A stretch of 64,000 nucleotides of DNA from an uncultured Methanoregulaceae archaeon (GCA_963701095.1 OY969564.1:1184001-1248000), one strand, 5' to 3'; counted from the stretch's first letter, positions 19,854 through 61,745 are shown. The notes: a model not told the origin generated them from the letters alone. Program-made: numbers and translations.

Positions 19854-20727
19854 TCTACGGGGATAAAAAGACCGGCATTATCGTGACTGGTGCGACCGGC
19901 CGGCAAGGAGAATACCATATCGGCTTAATGAACGAGTATGCTCGTCAGGTTGGTGGCAGAGGTGTTGTAGCGGGAGTCACACCAAAAAAGGGAGGCCAGA
20001 CGGTCCATGGTGTCCCGGTGTATAATACCGTAAAAGAAGCACTCCGGGAGCAGGACGCAACAGCGGCTGTTGTTTTTGTGCCAGGAGGGGCCGCGGCAGA
20101 TTCCATTATGGAAGCAGCAGAAGCTGGTCTCGAACTTATTGTGGCAATCACCGAACATGTTCCGGTGCATGATACTATGAAAGCGATTGCCTACGCAGAG
20201 ATGAAAGGGTGTGCGGTTATCGGGCCTAACTGCCCCGGCCTTCTCTCACCCGGTGAAGTAAAGATGGGGATCATGCCTTCAGGCCTCTTTTCACGGGGCA
20301 ATGTTGGCGTGGTCTCAAGAAGCGGTACGCTTACCTATGAAGTTGTCGATGAACTCACAAGGGCAGGGATTGGCCAGAGTACAGTAATTGGGATTGGTGG
20401 CGATCCGGTGATCGGCCAGACCTTCAGCGATGTGCTGGAACGGTTCGCGGAGGATCCCGGAACCAAGGCTGTTGTCCTCATCGGTGAAGTTGGGGGGAAT
20501 CTTGAGGCAGAAGGAGCCCGGCACACGGATGTACCCCTTGTTGCTTATATTGCCGGGTATCAGCACCACCGGATAAACGGATGGGCCATGCCGGCGCAAT
20601 CGTAGAAGGCGGGGAGAGCGATGCACGATCCAAGATTGCAAAACTCAAAGAAATGGGTGTCCCGGTCGCATCACGACCTTCGGAAATCCCGGATCTTATC
20701 CGGGACCTGTTCCGCTGCCACTGCTAA
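19850..20727 (+). CDS. sucD: Succinyl-CoA synthetase alpha subunit (frameshift near 20556)
   Basis: [30 protein letters not shown] with the catalytic His is in the shifted frame. Confidence 0.93.
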
Positions 20728-20774
20728 AATCAGGGAATTCCAGCAATTGTCTTTTTTGATCGTCTGCTTTTTTT

Positions 20775-21596
20775 TCACCGTACAACTGCCGAAGCGTGCG
20801 CATCGAATGGATTTGTTCGCATGGCAAGGGAGAACAGGTACGGATAGTGCGTCTTTAGGTGACGCATATATGTAAGCCAATCCGTAATCAAGAGGCCATA
20901 AACCCGGTTAAGGTCACCGGACAGATGAGCATAATCAGATGCTGGCAGATCGGTAAGATTATCGCGGGCTGCCAGTTCTTCAGCAAGATGAAAAACTGCC
21001 TGGAGAAGCGGGGTGAAATCTTCGTGTTCAATTATCTGCGGATTCTCATAGAGAGAAAGAAGGAAACTTTTACGCTCCTGTAGGAATCTGTTGAGATTGG
21101 TGAGGTCAAGCGTTTTACTGTCCAGTGAAGGTTTATGCTTCTTCAAAGAGGCAAATGCACGGGAAAAATCCTCATCAGACCATTTGTCTGAAACCAACAA
21201 CGCAGTTCGTACCTGGTCAACGGTAGGATCATTCCTGGAAAAGACCCTGAGTAAATTGGTTCCTACTTCAGAAAAAAAGACCCCGATAATCATATTGAGA
21301 TTTCTGAGCCTTATTGCCCGTTCACGATTTTCAATCATCAAATCAAGGGTAGTGGCAGCAAGACCTACGAAACAGCCGACACCGACAAGAATTATAACGA
21401 TTGTGAGCAGTTTTCCTGCTTCCGTCACCGGATGGATATCCCCATAACCCACCGTTGAAATGGTCACAACGACAAAATAGAACGCATCAAGCGGGGTGCG
21501 GTTTTCAAACACCATCATTCCCAGGATTCCCACGAGAATCACGACAATGAGAATGGAGATGTAAACTCGCAACCGCACGTAAATTGAATTTGTCAC
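20775..21596 (-). CDS. Two-TM potassium channel family protein
   Basis: TISTVGYGD selectivity filter. Confidence 0.9.
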   Translation of the reverse strand: MTNSIYVRLRVYISILIVVILVGILGMMVFENRTPLDAFYFVVVTISTVGYGDIHPVTEAGKLLTIVIILVGVGCFVGLAATTLDLMIENRERAIRLRNLNMIIGVFFSEVGTNLLRVFSRNDPTVDQVRTALLVSDKWSDEDFSRAFASLKKHKPSLDSKTLDLTNLNRFLQERKSFLLSLYENPQIIEHEDFTPLLQAVFHLAEELAARDNLTDLPASDYAHLSGDLNRVYGLLITDWLTYMRHLKTHYPYLFSLAMRTNPFDAHASAVVR

Positions 21597-21652
21597 AATC
21601 CGAAATACGAGCGCTCGATATAAAAATGAATTCCTCTTTTAAGAGAGCGCAA

Positions 21653-21725
21653 TACCCCCGACCAGATTCGAACTGGTGTCGCCGGATCCAAAGTCCTGCA
21701 TGATTGACCGCTACACTACGGGGGT
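21653..21725 (-). tRNA. tRNA-Gln(TTG)
   Basis: ACCCCCG...CAGGA-CT-TTG-GA-TCCGG...GTTCGAATC...CGGGGGTA; has the A1-U72 pair typical of archaeal tRNA-Gln. Confidence 0.95.
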
Positions 21726-22168
21726 TCATGGCATTTATCTCACTATCCAATAGTTACATGGAGTGGTGAGTGTGCCCTGTTATATCGTTTTCCAAACTCA
21801 AAAAAGCATTGATAATTATAACTTGGAAATGAAAAGCCAAGATTCCAGAAACAAAGGAATCATTGGTAATGTTTAGAGAGACAATTGGGATCCGTGTGAT
21901 ATTCAATCTCATTTTGAATAAATGGAAAATTTTGGAAATAAAAATTTATCATACGACGTATATATACCCCACAATTTTGGAAAAAATGGAAAATTCCGGA
22001 TTTTTCTAGTACAAAAAAGTGATTTTAGGACTTTCCAAAAACACGAAAAACATATATTTTCTTTTGTGGTTTTCGATCCCGATATCGAAAGATCCCTGCT
22101 AACGCGTCCAGATTATCCAAGAAAAGGTCAAATATTCGGCAAATGGAAGAGTAAAATGAAGGAAATTA

Positions 22169-22191
22169 GTATATAGCATAATACGGTTTAT
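22169..22191 (-). repeat. 23-bp motif, copy 1 (ATAAACCGTATTATGCTATATAC on the minus strand)
   Basis: Matches the copies at 25108 and 25974. Confidence 0.8.
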
Positions 22192-22368
22192 AGAAGTTTT
22201 CAACATTTCTTATAGATAAACGAAAAATCCACAATTTGAGACTAAAATCAAGAAAAAGGAGAAATTTAAGGATTTTTAAAAATTCTATAAATCGAAACGG
22301 TTTTAATTAGATATCCAAAAAGGTGGTTTTGGACCAAAAAAAACTACAAGGTGAATTTTTTATAATAT

Positions 22369-23289
22369 TCACGAATTGTCATTATCACTGGAAAGAGGGA
22401 AAAACTGCTGGTATACCTGGCGCCGTTCATCGATGTCAGTATGGAGATAAATTTCCGTTGTCTTTATGGAGGTATGACCCAAGTTCTCCTGGACCACACG
22501 GAGGTTCTTTGATCTCTTATACAATTCACTTGCATAACTGTGGCGGATTTTATGAGGGGTGATACCGGGAGGAGCATAATGCTTGAAAATGTGCTGAATC
22601 GCCCTCGGCGAGATATGCTTACCCTGCTGGCCGATAAACAAAGGACCTTCTATCTGGTTTCCTATAAAAGTCCGGATTCCGGCAAGGGTATCATCATCGA
22701 CGAAAACAATCCGCATCTTGTCACCTTTTCCCCGGATACGGATAGTATGTTCATCAAAATCGATATCCTCGACATTCATATTACAAAGCTCAGATACCCG
22801 CACTCCAGTGGAATAAATGGTTCTTACAATGAGTTTATCTCGAGGATCCTCAATCGAATCTATGAGACGGAGAACCTGACTATGTTTAAGATATCGTATC
22901 TCCTGCTGCTTGATACGGGGACGTTCAATGCCACTCAGGGGGTTTGCCAATACAGCTCCCTGGGTAGACAGGAAGCGGTAAAATGAGCTCAGAGTCGAGA
23001 TAATACGGTGAAACGTTTTGGGTTTGTAGGTCTTCATAGTCGAGACAAATGAGAGAAAATCGGTTATCATTGACGGTTGTACATCCACATTTGTATCTAA
23101 CCTGGCATTCTCGAAATCCTTCCAGAAGAAAACAAGTTTGGTAACTTCAGTATGCCGGCGGAGCCAGACATAATAGCCGAAATGTTTGATCACTTGTTCA
23201 TAGCTGTCAAGTGTCCGGGAAGAATAGTTGCGCATCCGCAGGTAATTTCGGTAACTTTTCAGCCAATCCGAAAAATACCCGCTATCCAT
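22369..23289 (-). CDS. xerA: XerA/XerC-like tyrosine recombinase
   Basis: N-terminal SAM-like domain; intact catalytic set TGVRVSE, GKGDK, HKIRH, LGH, TEIY. Confidence 0.92.
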   Translation of the reverse strand: MDSGYFSDWLKSYRNYLRMRNYSSRTLDSYEQVIKHFGYYVWLRRHTEVTKLVFFWKDFENARLDTNVDVQPSMITDFLSFVSTMKTYKPKTFHRIISTLSSFYRFLSTQGAVLANPLSGIERPRIKQQEIRYLKHSQVLRLIDSIEDPRDKLIVRTIYSTGVRVSELCNMNVEDIDFDEHTIRIRGKGDKMRIVFVDDDTLAGIRTFIGNQIEGPLFIGQQGKHISPRAIQHIFKHYAPPGITPHKIRHSYASELYKRSKNLRVVQENLGHTSIKTTEIYLHTDIDERRQVYQQFFPLSSDNDNS

Positions 23290-23322
23290 GCTCTAATCTT
23301 ATTTATCTCAAATTAATTAAGG

Positions 23323-23350
23323 TTTGCGCAGAATATATATTAGACATAAA
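23323..23350. other. dif-like site (11-6-11) upstream of xerA
   Basis: TTTGCGCAGAA-TATATA-TTAGACATAAA; geometry and left arm resemble bacterial dif. Confidence 0.55.
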
Positions 23351-23464
23351 CTAAAAAGAAACCATGATTAAAGCATAGAAAGTATGGAAAAATCTCAATT
23401 TTTTTCAATGGAAATGATGGTGAAATCTCGAAATTTCACGTCTAGAATGCGATTTTACGTCTGT

Positions 23465-23492
23465 ACTTCGTAGAATACCTGTTCTGCGACAA
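23465..23492. other. Second dif-like site (11-6-11)
   Basis: ACTTCGTAGAA-TACCTG-TTCTGCGACAA; the arms are imperfect inverted repeats (TCGTAGAA/TCGCAGAA). Confidence 0.55.
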
Positions 23493-24640
23493 ATCCGGTA
23501 TTACATCAAAATACACATCAATTATTTTTGCGTAGATCATTTACAAGTATTTTGGAAATGATCATCGATTTATTCAACTTTTGATAAAGGTAATTAACGA
23601 AATTCAGATTAATCTTTCGCCTTTTTGCCCCCAAATGGACTGAAAGTGAAATGTCAATGTCGGAAAATGGAAAATAAGATTTATCGACGGTACCAAAATA
23701 TTTCTTTAGATCCTCCCAAAAGTGGCTTTTTTTCAATCACAGTATGCTTTTCCCCATATTATACTGAGATTCGCCAACAAAACGAAGATATGAAGGCCTC
23801 CGTTAAACATAAGGATTGCCAGAAAACGATCCGTTCATTATGTCAGAGAAGGATTGGAAATTCTTTGAGAATGGTTGCAGAGATTATGTACAGAGATGGA
23901 GATCTATTCATTGAGGGGGCCCTCTTTGGATGTTGCCTCAATCTCAAAGGGATATGACCTCGTCATTACCTTATCCTAATTGCGGTGATTTGTAGTGATA
24001 TTTATCTTAATATCATCGTGCCAATTAAACTGCAATAAAAAAGCATTAACCATTTTTTACTATCTTTTGGCGATTGCTCGACGAGAAATGAATGTCCGCG
24101 ATCGCGGTTCTTCGCGAGATCCTGTCAGTCGCTGCAGTCTTGCCAGCGGTCACGTCTAAAAGTTTCGGAAATTTTGGAGAAGTTCCATAAGAAATCCCAC
24201 GTTAAAAATGAGATTTTCCTTATGACGAAATCTGAACTCTCATTCCCTGTGCAATATAATTAGACTAGATAAAATTGGGCCATGTTTCGAGGACAAAACA
24301 TGCCCTGAATTCCAGAGAATATCAAAGTGCAAATCCTGGCATTATGACAATTATCAAACCAGATCAAATCGATAGGTTCCTGCATATTCATCTTCTTTCT
24401 CTTTGGGGGATCGGACCACTGGACCCCAGCTGCCCGAACCAGACCCACTTCAAACCCTGCTGAAGCTGTATATCGGGATCGTTTATCACATCGAGGATGA
24501 ACTACTCGAGATTTAAAAAATGTTACTTCAGTGTGCCCCAGCTGAATAGAACTCTCCAGATTCGAACTATGTCAAGAATTTCGAAATAATTCGGAAATTT
24601 TTGGAAAAATTCCACAGAATATACGGTTTTGGAAATTTGT

Positions 24641-24930
24641 ATAATTTTACTTGCAAATAAAGATTTTCAATATTCGAGTCTTGGGTAAAATGGATTCTTC
24701 CAGATTTTATTACGTCTGAAAATTTTGGAAAATCTGGAAATTTTAGAGAAATTTCGAAAGAGTTACTGCTTTGGAATCAGGATAATTTTTACTTGAGCAT
24801 AAAGATTTTTGATATTCGAGCCTTAGGTAAAATGGATTCTTCCAGATTTTATTACGTCTGAAAGTTTTCGGGAAATTTAGAAATTTTAGAGAAAAGACCA
24901 CAGGAAGTTCTGCTTTAAAAAAATTTTCAT
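24641..24930 (+). repeat. ~142-bp imperfect tandem repeat (two good copies plus a degenerate upstream copy)
   Basis: Identical 38-mer GGTAAAATGGATTCTTCCAGATTTTATTACGTCTGAAA at 24684-24721 and 24826-24863; the flanks also align. Confidence 0.9.
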
Positions 24931-25107
24931 ATAATTTTTTCTCTTTTTATGTTTATCTCAAATCCTTCTCAAGTTTTGAAGAAACTGAATCAGATATTTA
25001 AGAAAGATCACATTAATATCAAAATCTCTCATTTTGTCGTTATTTTTTAAAATAAAGTGAATGTATCTAATTTTACCAACTTTAAATTGATAGAAGACCT
25101 CATTCAT

Positions 25108-25130
25108 ATAAACCATATATTGCTATACAC
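25108..25130 (+). repeat. 23-bp motif, copy 2 (ATAAACCATATATTGCTATACAC)
   Basis: Matches the copies at 22169 (minus) and 25974. Confidence 0.8.
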
Positions 25131-25346
25131 TAAAAGTAATAATACATATACAAAAGGGGAATTAATAGGAAGAGAAAGGTAGTTATAGAATACCCAGACT
25201 GCTCGCATAAAATTTGAAGATTTGCAGGAGAGAGATTTTAGAATGATTCAGAAAGAGGAATCTTCCTAAAGATATCATTGGGAGATTGAAGAAATTATAT
25301 AGCCAAACAAATATTAGGTTAGTAAAGGGAACCATTGGGAATAAAT

Positions 25347-25661
25347 ATGGCAGCTGACATGCAATTTCTGAATACAAAAGAGGTAGCCGAGATTCTGGGG
25401 GTCCACCAGAAAACAGTTCATAACTGGCTGAGGGCCGGAAAACTTGCAGGTACGAAAATCTCCTATCGTGCCTGGCGCATTCCACGTTCAGCATTGGAAG
25501 AATTTGTGGTAAGCAACAGTAACTTCCGTTCAAATGCCTCCGGCAGAGACATTAATAATTCTGGCACGAAGATCGACGCCATTCCTGAAGCGGGAATGAA
25601 AAATTTCATTCGGGACATAATGGGAGAAGACGGTAACGAGAAGCAAACGAATAAGAAATAA
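25347..25661 (+). CDS. Excisionase-family (HTH_17-like) DNA-binding protein
   Basis: FLNTKEVAEILGVHQKTVHNWLRAGKLAGTKISYRAWRIPRSALEEF. Confidence 0.88.
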   Translation: MAADMQFLNTKEVAEILGVHQKTVHNWLRAGKLAGTKISYRAWRIPRSALEEFVVSNSNFRSNASGRDINNSGTKIDAIPEAGMKNFIRDIMGEDGNEKQTNKK

Positions 25662-25973
25662 AGAACTCATTGGTAATACATTTTAGATATTGATTCAATG
25701 AGAGACTAAGATTGAATATCTCCGTATTACATTATATCCATTAATCATAATAGAGAAATAAGATCAATAACCGACATTGATCCTTTTCCATTTTAATAAG
25801 GAATTATAGAGTTCCCCGGTTATTGACTTATATTTTTCAAGGATCACTTTTTCAGCAGGTCATTAAAAATCCTTTCCTAAATAATTTTAATGCCGAAAAT
25901 AAAGTGATAACATATGAATAGATCAACCGAATCGTCCTTAATTCTTTAAAAAACAACGACTATCTTTTTAATC

Positions 25974-25996
25974 ATAAACCGTATACTGCTATATAC
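25974..25996 (+). repeat. 23-bp motif, copy 3 (ATAAACCGTATACTGCTATATAC)
   Basis: Matches the copies at 22169 (minus) and 25108. Confidence 0.8.
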
Positions 25997-26067
25997 AAAA
26001 GAGCCAGATTTGACCAGATTTGGTCTTATTCAATTATTTAGATGATAAACAAAACAGGAAGATTTTC

Positions 26068-26817
26068 ATGGATAAAAACGGCCAGAATGAAATTAACAAA
26101 TATAAAAAATTTAAAAAGGTCGATGGCGCCACTTATCGAAAAGTCAACCAATTCCTACGTAAACGCACGTATATCACAGCAAGGGAATGGGCGCTTGCAC
26201 GATTATGCACAGATTTCCGGACGTCCGGTGGTGCTGAAATGACCTTTATTGGAAAAAACCTTCCAGAACTTGTTCCTTTCATGGAGGACACATACTCCCC
26301 CCAAGCAGTAAATCAGGCTCGTAATTCGTTTAAGAAAAAGGTTCGAAAAGCAAGTGCAACTTTTTTCTATGGAGCGATGTGTGGATTTTTTACAACTGAT
26401 GAGCTTGACGACCTTCTTTTTGAAGCTAGTGAAGTGTCACGCTTTCTATTGGAAGTGGAAGGAACAACCATCGATATAGACGAAGAAATAGATATCGAGG
26501 ACCGGATCACCCGGGTAATGCGGAGCGTGGGTGAGACTGCAAAGACCATTCTTACCACAAGAACAGACAACAAGCTCACCGAGGACACAAATCCCTCCTT
26601 TCAACCAGAGAAAGAAAATAATAACCCTATTCCTCATTCAAATAACGAAATATCAGTTTTATCAGAATCGACCCGAACAGAAATGACAGATGCTAATCCC
26701 AATATTGAGGGAATCAAAACTTTTGAACCTTCAGATGAAAATGGGAAAAAAGAGACGGGCGATCAAACAGTAGATCCGGAAAAACCTCATCTGACACTCC
26801 ACAAAGAGGACATATAA
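26068..26817 (+). CDS. DUF5806-like conserved euryarchaeal protein with a disordered acidic tail
   Basis: FLRKRTYITAREWALARLC.DFR...LPELVPFM.DTYSPQAVNQAR; family recalled from memory. Confidence 0.7.
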   Translation: MDKNGQNEINKYKKFKKVDGATYRKVNQFLRKRTYITAREWALARLCTDFRTSGGAEMTFIGKNLPELVPFMEDTYSPQAVNQARNSFKKKVRKASATFFYGAMCGFFTTDELDDLLFEASEVSRFLLEVEGTTIDIDEEIDIEDRITRVMRSVGETAKTILTTRTDNKLTEDTNPSFQPEKENNNPIPHSNNEISVLSESTRTEMTDANPNIEGIKTFEPSDENGKKETGDQTVDPEKPHLTLHKEDI

Positions 26818-26820
26818 AAT

Positions 26821-27231
26821 ATGAAAATCATCCATGTGGCCGGACTTGCGAACACAGGGAAAACTACTTTTATCAAAAACCTTATTCCCTCACTTAAATC
26901 CCGAGGTCGCGTTGGCATCATAAAACATTTGAGGGATCATGACTATGTTCAGGAACCGGGAAAAGATACAACCATATTTTTCGAAAATGGTGCCGATATC
27001 TCAGCAGGGATTGATGCGGCTAAATCGGTCATCACGCTACGTACAACAGATCTCGATGAAATGCTTCTTCTTTACAAACAGGCCGGGATACAATTTGCAG
27101 TGATTGAAGGGTTCAAAATGTGCGATTTCCCAAAGATCGTAATTGGAGACTTAGTTATTGACAATTGTCTCTTGCGTAATCCAACGGTCGATCAGGTCAT
27201 TTCTCTGCTCTCTCAATTCGAAGACTATTAA
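26821..27231 (+). CDS. mobB: Molybdopterin-guanine dinucleotide biosynthesis protein B
   Basis: GLANTGKTT, IIKH, GKDT, VIEGFK. Confidence 0.85.
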   Translation: MKIIHVAGLANTGKTTFIKNLIPSLKSRGRVGIIKHLRDHDYVQEPGKDTTIFFENGADISAGIDAAKSVITLRTTDLDEMLLLYKQAGIQFAVIEGFKMCDFPKIVIGDLVIDNCLLRNPTVDQVISLLSQFEDY

Positions 27232-27261
27232 AATAAAAAAACCCGATGAGTCTTAACGAAA

Positions 27262-28642
27262 ATGGCAATTAAAATGGTTCAAAAACGGTTGTTTGGGACA
27301 AACGGTGTTCGAGGGATAGCAGGAAAAGAAATGACACCGGAGCTTACCCTCAAAATAGGTAAGGCCCTTGGCACAATGAGACCAGGAAAAATTGCAGTTG
27401 GACGGGATACCCGTACCTCCGGTCCGGTTCTCATTAATGCACTCAAAGCCGGACTCCTTGCAACAGGATGTGACGTTGTTGATTGTGGGATCCTCCCGAC
27501 ACCAGCTCTTCAGTATATCGTAAAGGAACATTATGAAGGTGGAGCGATGATCACAGCGTCCCACAACCCCCCGGAGTATAATGGCGTAAAAATTATTGAA
27601 CCAGATGGAACCGAGATGGGTGACGAAGAAACTATTTGTCTCGAAGAATTGCTTTTCGATAAATCGGCACCGTTCAAACAGTGGGATGAGGTCGGAACTG
27701 AGGTGAATGCACTCCATCTGGTTGATGAATATATACATGCCATTACCAAGCAGTTTCCTGAAAAACCAGGGAAAGGCATGACTGTGGTAGTTGATCCCGG
27801 ATCTGGTCCAGCCTGCCACACAACCCCCGCGATCCTGCAGGCGCTTGGATGCAAGGTTCTCACCATCAATGGTGTGATGGACGGGACATTTCCAGGACGC
27901 ATGCCGGAACCATCTCCGGAAGGTCTCAAAGGGCTTGCGGCATTAGTGTTGGCAAATAACGCTGCTTTTGGTGTGGCTCATGACGGTGATGCTGATCGGT
28001 CTGTTTTTGTTGATGATAAAGGCTTTTTCGTGGAAGAAAACCAGGAGTTCGCCCTTTTTGTACAGCATGTCTGTCAAAACGAGAGAGGGGCCATTGTCAC
28101 ACCGGTCAGCACATCCTTTTTGATCGAAATGATAGCCAAAAAAGCGGGATGCACGGTAAGGTACACCCAGGTCGGAAGTATCTATGTTGCCCGTACCATG
28201 CGGGAGCTTATTGAAACAGGAAATAAGGTGATATTTGGTGGAGAGGGAAACGGAGGTCTTATTTTCCCGGATCACCAGTTCTGTCGCGATGGGGGAATGA
28301 CAGACTGCCACCATGGTTTCACTTCTTGCGAGGTCTAAGAGGAGTTTGTCATCCCTTATCAGCGAATTACCACAACGACGGATGATAAAAGAAAAGATCA
28401 AAACACCATATGGTTCACAACTTATTGAACAGCTTAACCAAAAATATGCACGGGAATCGCTCGATCATACAGATGGCCTCAAAATAAAAAAAGAAAGAAC
28501 ATGGGCATTAATCCGGGCTTCAGGAACAGAACCACTTGTCCGCATAATGGTTGATGCTGACGATTGTAAAACAGGTTTGGCACTGTTTGAAGAAATAGAG
28601 ACCTCGGTTTCTGAAATTCTTAAAAAAATGTCCAATAGGTAA
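27262..28642 (+). CDS. glmM: Phosphoglucosamine mutase / phosphomannomutase (frameshift near 28304)
   Basis: LFGTNGVRG, TASHNP, HDGDADR, GGEGNGG, RASGTEP. Confidence 0.88.
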
Positions 28643-28830: not shown

Positions 28831-31800
28831 ATGATATCCGTTCCAATTACTGAAAAAATACAACATGCATTGATAATGAAGAACTGGGAGGAGATAGATT
28901 CAATTCTCATAGACTCCTCGCGATTTAAGGAGAAAAAGGATCGGGCGCTGATGCAACGGACCGTAAATTCGGTCATATTGGAATACTCATTTCGTGAAGA
29001 TTCGCCAGAATTACTTTTAGCCATTCGGACAATTCCTCATGAAGGTGCTGAAGATCTTTTCTCTCTTATTTTAAAACATTATATTGAGACAGGAAATAAA
29101 AAATGGTTTGATATTCTCTTTTCCGTATCAGAAAATCTGGGAAAAAAAAGTTCGCAATCAAAGATTGTGGCTTTTATTGTCCAAGAACTTATTTCATCCG
29201 GTATTGCTGAGTCGAAACCTGCCTATATCGAACTTGGTTTATCTGTTTTGAATAAAATCACCTTCAGAAAGTACCGATCAGATTGTATTATTGAATCTGC
29301 TTTCAGGATCACAAAATGGACTGTCATTAGTGGTAATATTATCCTTCTTTATCAGATCCGAGACCTTATATCAGGAATTAACGATATATCAAAACGAGCA
29401 GCGCTCCACACTGAAATAGCAAAGGCCCTTGCAATCATTGCAATTAAAAAAGGAGATTTCGAGATTTTTCTCGAAAGCATTCAATTTACAACTGAAATTC
29501 ACCAGAAACTCCGTAGAAGAGAATGCATTAAACAAATAATAATAATGGGCGTCAGGTCATCATTTGGAAAAGACCTATTGGATATTCGTGCCTTAATCTC
29601 ACATTTTGAAGGACTCCCAAAAGAGATTCAGGGAGAATTGATCTATACCCTGACGGAACAATTTCTTGATCGTGTAAAAAATAAAAATCAAATTAGGGAG
29701 AATTTTAATTATCTTGGAAAAAAATTTCCTTTCGCATGTAAACTTCTTATACAGAATCTTCTAAAAAAAGCAGAACGATCTGGAGAATTATGGTACCTCA
29801 CAACAGCCATTGGATTCCTTGATGAATTCCACATAAAAGAACAATACTCGGTCCGGGATATTGTTCGGGCGGGTATTGCCGTAGCCGGACACACCGGCTC
29901 AGCTCAGGGTACTCATTAATTTGATTCAGTTCATACAAAACTCATGCGATAATAATGAGTCTACAGCTATCTTTTTACAATTTTCTCAAATTATGCTGAC
30001 ATTAGGAGATTTTGAACGTGCCACCCAATTATTTTCACAAATTATACCACCAGCAGATAATGCGTCCCAGTATTGTGCCTGCCTTGCAAAATTAATAGAA
30101 GAAGGAATATTACACGATCAAAATTCTTTAAAATTCAAAGAAATTCTCGGAAAAAACGAACCCAATATGACTACAAATGCAATAAATCTTGCATTTCGTC
30201 AAATAGGACATATAGAACCGTTTGAAAGAATTGTGAAACATAGTAATTCCTTAAAACACATCCTGACCCTCCAAACCGGGAATGACACTATTATTTTGGA
30301 TTTTATTATTACTCTCACAAATCGGGGATTTCTCGATTTCTGCGATTCCGTATTTCTTGTGGATTTCGCAAAATTGATTCAGGTCCCGGCCTTTAGGGAG
30401 CAGGCAATTTCAACTGTAGTAATGAAACTTGCTGAAATAGGGGTGAAAACCGGGAACCGCGATTATCTTCAGCAAGCGGTAGGTACTACATGTCTGATTG
30501 CGGGACAGGAAATACGATCTTCGACACTGAGCAGTATTATTGACGATGCGGCCCTTCTTGCCGCAACCCAGGGTGACTTGGATCTCCTTTTGCGCATGCG
30601 AATTTGGAGCAGTTCATTTTTGGACCCGGATCTCATTGCATATGCAATTAAAAATATAATAGAGGGTGTAATAAAATATGCTTCTAGTAAACGGGATCCT
30701 GATGCCCTTGATGAGGCTTATCGAATCGCTCAAGATATAGAAGATCCCTCTTTAAGATTGCAGGTATGTGAGCGGATTGCGGAATCATTTGTCCGGATAG
30801 GTTGTGATCTCATACAGGAATCCAATTCGGCACAAAAAGGCCCCGTTAATCTAAACGTTTTATTAAAACCTTTTGAAAAAAGTCTGAGTTTACTAAGAGA
30901 TGAAGTCAAAAAACCCCAGATTTCTCTTAAAATTGCCGGAATGATTGATATCATCCTTTTTTCCTCAAAAAAGAGCCACGGAACGGATTACGTCCTTCCC
31001 TTAGCATTGTATTCTATTGAGATAGAAGATCCTTTGGAACGAAATGCAATGATGTTGAGGATCGTTGCCAAACTTAATGAAGAAATCATTTATCCGGACT
31101 CGGCTGATCCTTATGAAGTTCTTGCTTACATTTTGCAGAATCATTATCATATGCAATCAACTCCCGAAATAATCGATCTAATCCATCATCTCCTCGATCT
31201 GACACACGATCCTTTTATCCGGCTCAGAGGGTTATGTTCGCTGGCAGATGCAGCCGTTAATATAAGCGATGAAAACCTTGCCAGAAAAATTCTTGACGAA
31301 GTTCATCTGTTGGTACCAAATCTGCCGGCAGAATACCAGAAAATTCTGATCTTGGCGGATTTGACATCAGGGTACAGTAATATTGATCCGGAAAAAGCAA
31401 GACTCTGTTTAAATGAGGGATTAAATAAACTGCAATTTGTTGAGCCTGATCAGAATACAGTTGTTCGTCGTCAGATCGTATCAGTTGTTGTTAGGATGAC
31501 CACGCTTCTTCCTGAGAAAATAAGAATGGATCTGATATTAGAAGTGATATCAAACGTATCCGATCCTATTGAATATGTCAATGCACTTATTTCAGCATAC
31601 AGCCTTGAACATGGAACCGGAGATAAAAATACTATCCGCCATATCTCAGAAGCGATCGAGAAAATTCAGCTCACCCTATGATAAGTCAAGGCTTATTTTA
31701 AAAATAGTGCCCATGGCATTTCAGAATGGAGAGGAAGAATTTGCACTTGAATTGTTGGGAAAAGCAGAGAAACTGGCAAAGGCCATAAATATCCAGCATA

Positions 31801-60620: not shown

Positions 60621-61745
60621 TTATAAAAGGTAGGCAAGGACCTTGGCCGGCTCATACCGGAGCGTAATGACCCGGGTCCTTCCCTTTCCGCTACGGTACT
60701 GGAGATTGACAAGCCTCATTGCATCCATCTTCTTGATAATCTCGTAGAATCGAGTATACCCTATAGGCACCTGCTCTTTTATGGATTTGTAGACGTCCCC
60801 GGCATTCATTTCGGAACCTGACACACTTTTTGTCGCAAGTTCCCTGAGAATCCTGCGCTCTTCATCCTTAAGTGTCCTCAACGTATATTCGAGATGGAGA
60901 TACTTAGACACGGCATATGCGCCACAGATATCCCCGCGTTCAATACTGCGGCGTGCATCCCTCTCTGCGTTGAGCGCTGCTCTTTTCAGGAGATCGATGC
61001 CGACCCGCAAATCGCCGCTCTTTTGGGTCTGCTCCACGACAAGGTCGAGCATCTCTTCGCTTAACACACCGGTAAAAAAACCCTGCATTGCCCGGGCTCT
61101 CATGATATCTTCAACTTCGGCATTTCCGTAAGGTGGGAAATAGATCTCAGTAGGCCGGAAAACCGAAGCGACCCTGGCATCCACTGCCCGGGAAAGATCA
61201 ACATCCGGGTCACTGATAATTACAATCACACCGATCCGGACGCCCTCGTATGATTCATGGGCCCGCAGTAGCGTATAAAGAACTTTGTTGAGTTCATTTT
61301 CGTAGAGAAGGTAATTGGCGTCGTCAAGTGCCACTAGCAACACATATTCCTCTTTCTGGAGGATTCGGGCAACAGCATCAAAGACCTGTTTGAAAGAGGT
61401 TCCCGAAGACGGAGGGAGATGACCGGATAGTTTCCTGTATATCTGGGAAAGAATTGCAAACTTCGTGTTATCAATTTGGCAGTTGACCAGAACCGGCACC
61501 AGTTTCTTTGTTGTCTCTTCGATCTCCTGGAAAAGTTTCCTGATACTCGTGGTCTTACCAGAACCGGGTAAACCTTTGCAGATCGTATTGAGGGGGCGTG
61601 CACCCCGGAGGCCGGGCCGGATCTGGAACGCTAGTTCGCGCATCTGCGTGTCACGGAACTCGAACTGTTCGGGAACATAATCAATCTCGAAAACATCAGG
61701 GTCCCGGAACAATGACTCGTCCCACATCAGCAGGTTCTTTTTCAT
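60621..61745 (-). CDS. cdc6: Orc1/Cdc6 replication initiator
   Basis: DYVP, GLPGSGKT, VALDD, FPPY, GDLRVGIDLL and a C-terminal winged helix. Confidence 0.95.
   Translation of the reverse strand: MKKNLLMWDESLFRDPDVFEIDYVPEQFEFRDTQMRELAFQIRPGLRGARPLNTICKGLPGSGKTTSIRKLFQEIEETTKKLVPVLVNCQIDNTKFAILSQIYRKLSGHLPPSSGTSFKQVFDAVARILQKEEYVLLVALDDANYLLYENELNKVLYTLLRAHESYEGVRIGVIVIISDPDVDLSRAVDARVASVFRPTEIYFPPYGNAEVEDIMRARAMQGFFTGVLSEEMLDLVVEQTQKSGDLRVGIDLLKRAALNAERDARRSIERGDICGAYAVSKYLHLEYTLRTLKDEERRILRELATKSVSGSEMNAGDVYKSIKEQVPIGYTRFYEIIKKMDAMRLVNLQYRSGKGRTRVITLRYEPAKVLAYLL

What the first reader, a model, noticed from the sequence alone, without database searches (positions are those of the whole stretch)
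21726..26817. xerA locus embedded in ~3 kb of patterned non-coding DNA with an excisionase-like gene and DUF5806: a candidate archaeal chromosome-resolution or recombination control module
Seen: an intact tyrosine recombinase flanked by ~640 bp and ~2050 bp of AT-rich DNA with no convincing ORFs, in an otherwise gene-dense genome. This DNA holds dif-like sites, a thrice-repeated 23-mer and 142-bp repeats. An excisionase-type HTH gene and a DUF5806-like gene are transcribed divergently from xerA. Known: archaeal XerA resolves chromosome dimers at dif, and HTH_17/Xis proteins act as recombination directionality factors. Inference: XerA, a Xis-like partner, DUF5806 and accessory DNA sites may form a resolution or segregation system (archaea lack FtsK, so accessory control would be needed), or a domesticated integrative element.
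Basis: partly seen in the sequence, partly recalled or inferred. Interest (0 to 1): 0.85.

Follow-up and report, generated by a model that had tools for sequence, protein, structure and literature searches.

The report
Paired dif-like sites bracketing xerA
The gene for the enzyme that separates joined chromosome copies in this methane-producing archaeon lies between mirror-image copies of a short DNA motif that nearly all its relatives also keep, and that motif is probably the enzyme's own, so far undescribed, target site.

Summary
An intact xerA (22369-23289, -) lies between 643 and 2045 bp of low-GC DNA with no supported genes. The "thrice-repeated 23-mer" occurs three times in this locus and nowhere else in the 2.63-Mb genome. 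It is the key feature.

The motif (ATAAACCrTAT-raTGCT-ATAy...) occurs in 118 of 121 genomes of the order. It nearly always forms a divergent inverted pair 1.5-3.5 kb apart. One copy abuts xerA and the other lies upstream of DUF5806-MobB-GlmM.

Related motifs sit beside XerA-like or other tyrosine recombinase genes in GC-rich relatives of the phylum. They also occur on all three Haloferax volcanii megaplasmids searched.

The xerA segment between the sites has been flipped at least three times in evolution.

Best reading (about 0.62): these are XerA's dif-type sites, forming a two-site xerA/dif module. The low-GC spacer is a fast-evolving plasticity zone. The HTH_17 gene is a one-gene cassette between two direct copies of the site.

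The idea that the HTH_17 and DUF5806 proteins partner XerA is not supported. HTH_17 was found only in this genus. DUF5806 is unlinked to xerA in the five GC-rich genomes searched. Binding of XerA to the motif is untested.

Verdict: a new variant of a known kind.

The parts
21653..21725 (-). tRNA-Gln(UUG). It is a conserved left neighbour, not an att site.
   Evidence: ARAGORN and Rfam 55 bits. It is present on the xerA side in 13 of 17 related loci. No repeat of it lies nearby.
21975..22006 (+). Element TTTTGGAAAAAATGGAAAATTCCGGATTTTTC. It is one of seven TTTTGGAAA words in the locus.
   Evidence: 7 of the genome's 78 TTTTGGAAA copies lie in 21600-26100, the only cluster of 3 or more in the genome. 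Similar elements occur in L015 and L037.
22164..22191 (-). Site S1, ATAAACCGTAT-TATGCT-ATATACTAATT. It lies 178 bp 3' of xerA, co-oriented with xerA, with its strong arm facing inward.
22369..23289 (-). xerA, an intact Xer-family tyrosine recombinase of 306 aa.
   Evidence: Pfam. PDB 4a8e E 1.6e-31 and 5hxy E 7.6e-26. Residues R164, K188, H246, R249, H272 and Y281 are invariant in 26 of 26 orthologues. Orthologues share 55-92% identity across the order.
23311..23346 (-). xerA promoter region. It holds a TATA-like TTAATTAATT and the proximal half ATTCTGCG of a palindromic operator conserved across the order. The distal half is degenerate here.
   Evidence: The alignment of 35 xerA upstream regions shows CGCAGAAT-N4-ATTCTGCG followed by AAAccTTTAaTTA about 30 nt before the ATG. 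The blastn match runs to 23341.
23470..23497 (+). Second copy of the operator-like palindrome (CGTAGAAT-ACCT-GTTCTGCG-ACAAATCC), pointing away from xerA.
   Evidence: and the sequence.
23290..25107 (.). Low-GC, gene-poor spacer inside the inverted pair. It is fast-evolving.
24588..24868 (+). Tandem duplication of 142 bp, two copies at 78-82% identity.
   Evidence: No copy exists elsewhere in the genome.
25108..25135 (+). Site S3, ATAAACCATAT-ATTGCT-ATACACTAAAA. It is inverted relative to S1 and direct with S2.
25347..25661 (+). HTH_17 (excisionase-family) gene between the direct sites S3 and S2. It has an N-terminal HTH, a variable linker and a conserved C-terminal KMKHYIRDIMGED motif.
   Evidence: Pfam, PHROGs excisionase and DNA-binding families, alignment. 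234 homologues were found, and all those a source names are Methanoregula.
25974..26001 (+). Site S2, ATAAACCGTAT-ACTGCT-ATATACAAAAG. It lies 67 nt upstream of the DUF5806 ATG.
26068..26817 (+). DUF5806 gene, first gene of the conserved DUF5806-MobB-GlmM block. Its function is unknown.
   Evidence: Pfam E 1.9e-70. It is linked to the site in 46 of 51 loci of the order and unlinked in 5 of 5 GC-rich relatives.

Best explanation
The locus is this organism's xerA/dif module in a two-site form.

The 23-mer is the core of a roughly 26-28-bp recombinase site. It has a near-invariant arm ATAAACCrTAT, a central raTGCT, and a weaker arm ATAyrnwAa. XerA most likely binds it as its own target (inferred, not shown).

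S1 and S3/S2 are in divergent inverted orientation with their strong arms facing inward. They bracket xerA and a fast-evolving, low-GC spacer. Sister copies of a site would be recombined to resolve chromosome dimers.

Recombination between the two inverted copies is rare. When it happens it flips the xerA segment. This is seen between lineages only.

Extra direct copies box in variable genes. In this genus the boxed gene is a single excisionase-family HTH gene (S3-HTH_17-S2, 894 bp).

The spacer itself is best read as a plasticity zone. It carries the xerA promoter and operator, a duplicated operator copy, a tandem duplication and TTTTGGAAA-type words. It is not a set of decayed genes.
For: 1. 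Uniqueness. There are three copies in 3.8 kb and no other copy with 5 or fewer mismatches in 2.63 Mb.

2. Conservation. The pattern TAAACYNTATNNTGCTATA (1 mismatch allowed) occurs in 118 of 121 genomes of the order, and in 104 of 104 high-quality ones. There are 273 matches against 16 for the reversed-pattern control. In the family it occurs in 30 of 31 genomes, with 1-7 copies. Meanwhile the surrounding spacers do not align even within the genus.

3. Layout. All 53 same-contig pairs listed are divergent ('-' copy at the lower coordinate, '+' at the higher).

4. Position relative to xerA. Of 51 xerA loci:
- 31 have the form <S <XerA ... S>.
- 12 have xerA flipped inside the pair.
- 7 have xerA just outside the pair.
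- 1 has a single site.
In the 31 loci of the first form, the site lies 7-1341 bp from the 3' end of xerA.

5. Inversions end at the sites. In one genus the flanks are colinear and xerA is reversed between 5 and 9 species. Each state forms one clade. Independent flips occur in family f4 (L021, L022) and in L041.

6. Association with other tyrosine recombinases:
- GC-rich relatives have the same pair around a DUF5805 + XerA-like operon (L048, L052, L054, L061; in L063 a TrmB-like gene replaces DUF5805).
- Small replicons have the site within about 250 bp of other integrase genes (L055, L056, L064, L065).
- A viral contig has Int> S> with a 19-bp gap (L094).
- On pHV4 the site lies 49 bp after a tyrosine recombinase gene.
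DUF5805 was not found in 5 of 5 genomes of the order. The recombinase is therefore the only constant neighbour.

7. Replicon-maintenance context. 3 of 3 H. volcanii megaplasmids carry sites, with 0 control hits. The single pHV3 pair lies 2.6-3 kb from a published candidate near an Smc-dependent boundary. On pHV4 and pHV1 a site follows the parA operon (PMC11840125, passages).

8. Form. The conserved block runs from -1 to about +24, with a sharp edge 11 nt before a 6-nt centre. Its arms are more symmetric than background: 5.4 of 11 against 2.8 +/- 1.5. Solved archaeal dif sites are also 11-6-11. P. abyssi dif is ATTGGATATAA-TCGGCC-TTATATCTAAA, and T. kodakarensis dif is TTTTGATATAA-TGTACC-TTATATGACAA.
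Against: - No binding or recombination was tested.
- The motif lacks the TAA-N6-8-TTA feature that PMC11840125 calls the most conserved trait of archaeal dif. It has TAT-N6-ATA instead.
- The strongest dyad axis is not the 11-6-11 one. It is centred on the A of TAT (6.4 of 11), which gives a 21-bp palindrome of the kind a dimeric regulator would bind.
- Every genome has two or more copies, not one.
- The position relative to the main cdc6 gene varies: 72 degrees in this genome and 92, 114, 156, 164 and 170 degrees in five complete relatives (my arithmetic).
- Sites are usually co-oriented with, and 30-100 nt upstream of, a downstream gene, as a promoter element would be.
- About half of the sites fetched from GC-rich relatives (9 of 18 loci) have no recombinase gene nearby.
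- The two sites of a genome show no homogenisation: 147 matches observed against 147.6 expected.
- Within one genus a single flip explains both orientations, so exchange between the pair is very rare.
Confidence: 0.62

Rival explanations
1. The motif is a palindromic operator or promoter element for a transcription factor. That factor would control the outward-facing genes (the DUF5806 operon, HTH_17, and the gene 3' of xerA). Its closeness to xerA would be a regulatory link only.
For: - The best dyad is a 21-bp palindrome, ATAAACCAT-ATG-ATGCTATAT, with 6.4 of 11 symmetric positions.
- Sites are co-oriented with the downstream genes and lie about 20-100 nt before the DUF5806 start in most loci.
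- GCTATATA is TATA-like.
- Several pairs in GC-rich relatives flank non-recombinase genes such as Rio2.
Against: - The distance to the downstream start ranges from about 20 nt to 2.3 kb.
- S1-type sites often overlap or directly follow the xerA stop (L043, L044).
- Inversion end points coincide with the sites.
- Sites sit next to tyrosine recombinases of several subfamilies and on plasmids and one viral contig.
- No regulator gene is consistently adjacent. DUF5805 was absent in 5 of 5 genomes of the order, and DUF5806 is unlinked in haloarchaeal-type genomes.
Confidence: 0.15
2. The sites are replicon-maintenance sites of another kind. They could be centromere-like partition sites, or roadblock and boundary elements for Smc, that happen to be linked to xerA.
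For: - On pHV4 and pHV1 a site lies 255 and 397 bp after a parA operon.
- The pHV3 pair lies within 3 kb of sequences that PMC11840125 examined beside an Smc-dependent boundary.
- T. kodakarensis dif lies in a 1.9-kb intergenic boundary region.
Against: - No parA-type gene lies at the locus in the order. MobB is a different P-loop protein.
- Centromeres are usually arrays, not single 26-bp sites.
- This reading does not explain the flips ending at the sites, or the adjacency to recombinase genes.
Confidence: 0.1
3. The locus is an integrated mobile element at tRNA-Gln, carrying an integrase (xerA) and an excisionase (HTH_17). It is either decaying or domesticated.
For: - A tRNA gene lies 447 bp from S1.
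- The element would carry a tyrosine recombinase plus an excisionase-family HTH (PHROGs).
- The DNA is low in GC.
- Neighbouring species have IS elements, a serine recombinase and HicB in the same zone.
Against: - No repeat of the tRNA was found.
- xerA gave a single full-length match of 55-90% identity in 19 of 30 relatives and a match in pieces in 4 more. It keeps the same neighbours across the order.
- 11 other integrase-family hits in the genome lie elsewhere.
Confidence: 0.03
4. The locus is a replication origin, with inverted ORB-like boxes flanking an AT-rich unwinding region.
For: - Inverted repeats flank AT-rich DNA.
- A weak Cdc6_C hit lies 37 kb away in the window.
Against: - The inverted copies are 1.5-11 kb apart and enclose a gene.
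- The motif does not look like the ORB boxes I recall (recalled, not tested).
- The strong Cdc6 gene is at 1.728 Mb, near the minimum of the cumulative GC skew at 1.76 Mb.
Confidence: 0.02

Closest known systems
Archaeal XerA/dif (Pyrococcus abyssi, Thermococcus kodakarensis, Thermoplasma acidophilum, Sulfolobus)
   Same: - A single Xer-family recombinase, whose best solved relatives are 4a8e and 5hxy.
- A short AT-rich site with inverted arms around a 6-bp centre.
- In Sulfolobales the predicted dif lies close to xerA, with two copies in S. solfataricus (PMC2958812, passages).
- T. acidophilum has two XerA-binding sites (PMC11840125, passages).
   Different: - The sequence differs: TAT-N6-ATA instead of TAA-N6-TTA.
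- The arms are strongly asymmetric.
- A conserved divergent pair encloses or abuts xerA.
- There are 2-7 copies per genome.
- It is not consistently opposite the cdc6 gene.
XerS/difSL and XerH/difH modules of bacteria
   Same: The recombinase gene is encoded directly beside its own asymmetric site, as one inherited module (PMC5357621, abstract and search listing only; details recalled).
   Different: Those modules have one site. Here there are two inverted sites plus extra direct copies.
dif-surrounding boundary region of T. kodakarensis (PMC11840125)
   Same: dif lies in an unusually long (about 1.9 kb) intergenic region. Here a 1.8-2.8-kb low-GC, gene-poor spacer adjoins the sites in 7 of 7 loci of the genus.
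   Different: There are no data on Smc, TrmBL2 or boundaries for this organism. The spacer sequence is not conserved.
pdif modules of Acinetobacter plasmids and IMEX elements
   Same: Genes are boxed in by Xer sites, and the cargo between sites varies among relatives.
   Different: These sites are chromosomal and ancient, and the recombinase gene itself lies inside the module. Mobility of the boxed genes is not shown. (10.1101/2024.04.09.588662 and PMC9765430 were seen as search listings and abstracts only.)
XafT, the Xer activation factor of TLC-phi (PMC9226527, abstract only)
   Same: A small protein encoded by DNA bounded by dif sites that could act on a Xer recombinase.
   Different: No homology was tested, and the co-fold gave no answer. 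This is an analogy only.

Membership tests
Xer/dif chromosome-dimer resolution system | Chromosomal Xer-family tyrosine recombinase with an intact catalytic set | tested here: met
   Pfam E 7e-35. XerA structures are the best PDB matches. R164, K188, H246, R249, H272 and Y281 are invariant in 26 of 26 orthologues. Assigning these residues to the R-K-H-R-H-Y set is from recall.
Xer/dif chromosome-dimer resolution system | Site of two inverted 11-bp arms around a 6-bp centre | tested here: inconclusive
   The conserved block fits 11-6-11 with a sharp left edge. Arm symmetry is only 5.4 of 11 (background 2.8), and another dyad axis scores 6.4.
Xer/dif chromosome-dimer resolution system | One site per replicon, near the replication terminus | tested here: not met
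   There are 2-7 copies per genome. The angle to the best cdc6 gene ranges from 72 to 170 degrees in 6 genomes.
Xer/dif chromosome-dimer resolution system | The recombinase binds and recombines the site | not testable with these tools
   Needs EMSA, ChIP or a plasmid recombination assay.
Recombinase-plus-adjacent-site module (XerS/difSL type) | The site lies directly beside the recombinase gene and is inherited with it | tested here: met
   A site lies within 7-1821 bp of xerA in 51 of 51 loci (832 bp in the single-site locus L020). The same holds for XerA-like genes in GC-rich relatives.
Invertible DNA switch | Both orientations coexist within a population | tested here: inconclusive
   Both orientations exist between species. 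Assembled contigs of four runs were colinear with the window, but contigs drop rare variants.
Integrated element with Int/Xis at a tRNA gene | att direct repeats that include part of the tRNA, and patchy presence among relatives | tested here: not met
   No tRNA repeat was found. xerA and its neighbours are conserved across the order.
IMEX or dif-bounded cassettes | Genes bounded by direct Xer sites, differing between relatives, with evidence of movement | tested here: inconclusive
   S3-HTH_17-S2 is found in 5 of 7 loci of the genus; the other two have a different filling. Other genera hold a response-regulator gene between direct sites. No empty or filled pair at high identity was found.
Archaeal replication origin | ORB boxes beside orc1/cdc6, closely flanking a short unwinding element | tested here: not met
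   The nearest Cdc6_C hit is 37 kb away and weak. The inverted copies are kilobases apart around a gene.

The most novel reading that the evidence does not exclude
The divergent pair is a conserved two-site Xer platform of the Halobacteriota. XerA is encoded inside an invertible module bounded by its own sites. Additional direct copies capture single genes, as in a chromosomal integron. The Methanoregula HTH_17 protein (DNA-binding head, flexible linker, conserved C-terminal peptide) would be a XafT-like factor that switches XerA on or sets its direction, standing in for the missing FtsK. If so, the haloarchaeal dif candidates in print would be the wrong sequences.
Probability: 0.12. Interest if true: 0.85.

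Novelty: new variant of a known kind. Interest (0 to 1): 0.6.

Why it matters
No paper in the searched library holds both "XerA" and "Methanomicrobiales". A 2026 study of haloarchaeal plasmids states that known Xer sites could not be found there and that their XerA may recognise an uncharacterised motif (PMC13532300, passages).

A motif with three properties gives a concrete, testable candidate for that missing site:
- It is unique to the xerA locus in 118 of 121 genomes of an order.
- It recurs beside tyrosine recombinase genes in related classes.
- It is present on all three H. volcanii megaplasmids searched.

The conserved inverted-pair layout also gives a handle on how archaeal Xer recombination is kept in check without FtsK. 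H. volcanii has genetics, ChIP and Hi-C already in place, so the test is within reach.

Tried and rejected
- **Reads.** Contigs of four public runs were laid on 20500-27500. All pieces across S1, S3 and S2 were colinear, and no strand-changing joint appeared at the sites. These were contigs only, so a rare inverted form cannot be excluded.
- **Co-fold of XerA with HTH_17.** No answer; this is not evidence either way.
- **DUF5806 structure.** AlphaFold2 on 21 orthologues gave mean pLDDT 52, all helical and unusable. A PDB profile search found nothing. The ESM Atlas returned only DUF5806 clusters and sub-threshold folds. Its function stays unknown.
- **Pseudogene search in the spacers.** ORFs of 35 related loci gave only short matches. 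The best, E 6e-6 over 17 aa, lies in the conserved xerA leader.
- **Homologues of ORF 23625-23957.** None found.
- **Viral contigs.** There were 79 exact pattern matches. Most lie inside ORFs or belong to repeated phage gene families. Two sites on one contig turned out to be part of a 4-kb duplication. Only L094 (Int> S>) fits the pattern.
- **Homogenisation of paired sites.** None seen.
- **GC skew of the genome.** Too weak to place a terminus.
- **Published alignment of archaeal dif sites.** In PMC11840125 it is a picture, so the authors' H. volcanii and H. salinarum sequences could not be compared with this motif.

Full report
**What is in the window**

From left to right the stretch holds:
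- a K+ channel gene
- tRNA-Gln (21653-21725, -)
- 643 bp of low-GC DNA
- xerA (22369-23289, -)
- 2045 bp of low-GC DNA
- an HTH_17 gene (25347-25661, +)
- 406 bp of spacer
- DUF5806 (26068-26817, +), MobB and GlmM

GC falls to 0.25-0.42 in the spacers, against 0.43-0.57 in the genes. The five spacer ORFs tried have no Pfam family. Rfam finds only the tRNA. ORFs from 35 related loci leave no convincing protein trace in the spacers. The longest spacer ORF has no homologue candidate.

With a crude ORF mask, 88% of the genome is covered and only 20 gaps reach 1 kb. The 142-bp tandem duplication and the thrice-repeated 23-mer are both real.

**The 23-mer is the key feature**

Its three copies are S1 at 22169-22191 (-), S3 at 25108-25130 (+) and S2 at 25974-25996 (+). 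They are the only matches with 5 or fewer mismatches in 2,625,686 bp.

The spacers do not align between species of the same genus. Even so, the motif is present in all 17 xerA loci first fetched from the order. As the pattern TAAACYNTATNNTGCTATA with at most one mismatch, it occurs as follows:
- in 118 of 121 genomes of the order, and 104 of 104 high-quality ones
- 273 matches, against 16 for the reversed control
- in 30 of 31 genomes of the family, with 1-7 copies each

A logo of 86 sites shows a conserved block from -1 to about +24: A|TAAACCrTAT|raTGCT|ATAyrnwAa. Its 5' edge is sharp.

**Layout**

All 53 same-contig pairs listed are divergent. I mapped sites, xerA, DUF5806 and tRNA-Gln on 51 xerA loci:
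- 31 have the form <S <XerA ... S> DUF5806> MobB> GlmM>. The window is of this form, with an extra direct site.
- 12 have xerA flipped inside the pair.
- 7 have xerA just outside the pair.
- 1 has a single site.

The near-invariant arm of each site faces inward.

The distance from xerA to the inner site ranges from about 0.5 to 10 kb. The content of that stretch varies widely. It includes IS transposases, a serine recombinase, HicB, response regulators, ordinary metabolic genes, ORFans (one with a terminase-like hit), or nothing recognisable.

In the window's genus this spacer is always 1.8-2.8 kb and 4-11 GC points below the locus mean.

**Evidence that the sites are recombination sites**

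1. *Flips end at the sites.* In one genus of 14 species the outer flanks are colinear, while xerA aligns in reverse between 5 species of one form and 9 of the other. On a tree of the flanking operon each form is a single clade, so one flip suffices. Separate flips are seen in family f4 and in L041. The exchange is therefore real but rare.

2. *The only constant neighbour is a tyrosine recombinase.*
   - GC-rich relatives in the phylum have the same pair around a DUF5805 + XerA-like operon.
   - DUF5805 was not found in 5 of 5 genomes of the order.
   - DUF5806 is far from the pair in 5 of 5 GC-rich genomes.
   - On small replicons the site lies next to other integrase genes.
   - On one viral contig it lies 19 bp after an integrase gene.

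3. *The sites occur on named replicons.* Sites are present on 3 of 3 H. volcanii megaplasmids searched, with no control hits.
   - pHV3 has exactly one divergent pair, at 294,449 and 294,843.
   - That pair is 2.6-3 kb from a sequence that PMC11840125 reports beside its putative pHV3 dif, near an Smc-dependent boundary.
   - A chance placement within +/-4 kb on a 438-kb replicon is about 2% (my estimate).
   - pHV4 has a site 49 bp after a tyrosine recombinase gene and another after a parA operon.
   - pHV1 has one after a parA operon.

**What weighs against this reading**

- Nothing here shows binding.
- The motif has TAT-N6-ATA where published archaeal dif sites have TAA-N6-TTA.
- The 11-6-11 reading gives only 5.4 of 11 symmetric positions, against a background of 2.8 +/- 1.5. 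A dyad centred three bases to the left gives 6.4, which is a 21-bp palindrome of the kind a dimeric regulator might use.
- Sites tend to be co-oriented with, and shortly upstream of, a gene.
- There are always two or more copies.
- The locus lies 72 degrees from the strong cdc6 gene in this genome, and 92-170 degrees in five complete relatives.
- The two sites of a genome are no more alike than sites of different genomes.
- Half of the loci fetched from GC-rich relatives (9 of 18) have no recombinase gene nearby.

I therefore hold the Xer-site reading at about 0.62. A regulator or promoter element stands at 0.15, another maintenance role (partition or boundary) at 0.10, and the integrated-element and origin ideas at a few per cent each.

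**The two proposed partner proteins**

*HTH_17.* This protein has an excisionase-type head, a variable linker and a conserved C-terminal peptide, KMKHYIRDIMGED. It has 234 homologues, and all those that a source names are Methanoregula. Orthologues sit between the two direct sites in 5 of 7 loci of the genus. They were not found in the other two or in other genera. It is best described as a genus-specific one-gene box between direct copies of the site. A role in controlling XerA is possible but has no support here.

*DUF5806.* This is a conserved neighbour within the order only. It remains of unknown function.

**Other patterned DNA in the spacer**

- *xerA operator.* Upstream of xerA, a palindrome CGCAGAAT-N4-ATTCTGCG abuts a BRE/TATA-like AAAccTTTAaTTA about 30 nt before the ATG. 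It is conserved across the order. In the window its distal half is degenerate, and a second copy points the other way at 23470-23497.
- *TTTTGGAAA words.* This word occurs 7 times in the locus out of 78 in the genome. One longer element (21975-22006) recurs in two relatives.

These look like protein-binding sites, but I could not assign them.

**Comparison with what is known**

The locus works most like a single-recombinase Xer module with the site beside the gene (XerS/difSL, XerH/difH, Sulfolobus xer/dif). It is also reminiscent of the long dif-bearing intergenic boundary of T. kodakarensis. It differs in three ways:
- the sequence of the site
- the conserved divergent pair that encloses the recombinase gene
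- the extra direct copies that box in variable genes

Earlier notes of this scan describe similar inverted sites around xerA in DPANN archaea. Those notes are unchecked and concern other DNA, but they suggest the layout is widespread.

I found no paper linking XerA to this order. One recent paper states that the XerA site of haloarchaeal plasmids is unknown.

**Verdict**

This is a new variant of a known kind, of moderate to high interest because it gives a precise and testable candidate site.

Noticed in passing
window 28295-28340: GlmM reads in two frames, with residues 3-346 in one frame and 348-453 in the next. The junction is at a run of five G. This is either a real frameshift or a homopolymer error of the assembly.
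   Followed up: partly
window 23311-23346 and 23470-23497: A palindromic operator (CGCAGAAT-N4-ATTCTGCG) abuts the xerA TATA box and is conserved across the order. The window has a half-degenerate copy at the promoter and a second, divergent copy 140 bp further on. The binding factor is unknown. The best other genome match has 1 mismatch and lies at genome position 2,541,611.
   Followed up: partly
window 21600-26100: The word TTTTGGAAA occurs 7 times here out of 78 in the whole genome. This is the only cluster of 3 or more copies within 4.5 kb.
   Followed up: partly
window about 60636-60794 (genome 1244636-1244794, -): A weak Cdc6_C match (25 bits) in a 404-aa frame lies 37 kb from xerA. Divergent cdc6-like genes also lie 94-153 kb from xerA in G025 and G030.
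   Followed up: no
G063 and G081: The two sites are 1.13 Mb apart in G063 and on different contigs in G081. This suggests a large rearrangement with one end between the sites.
   Followed up: no
L058 and L063: In two GC-rich relatives a divergent pair of sites brackets a Rio2 kinase gene. In L063 this pair lies directly beside the XerA-like operon.
   Followed up: no
NC_013964 (pHV3) 294044-295154: The only site pair of pHV3 lies in a 1.1-kb gap between a molybdenum cofactor guanylyltransferase gene and an SDR gene. It is 2.6-3 kb from the published candidate sequences near 297.4 kb.
   Followed up: partly
L032, L035, L036, L038, L030+31, L033+34: In several genera of the family the whole DUF5806-MobB-GlmM block lies between two direct copies of the site. 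The distal copy often carries TGCG or TGCA instead of TGCT.
   Followed up: partly
window 28831-31681: Two large ORFs (362 and 586 aa) follow GlmM and are syntenic across the order at 25-47% identity. The 362-aa ORF has no Pfam family; the 586-aa ORF was not scanned.
   Followed up: no
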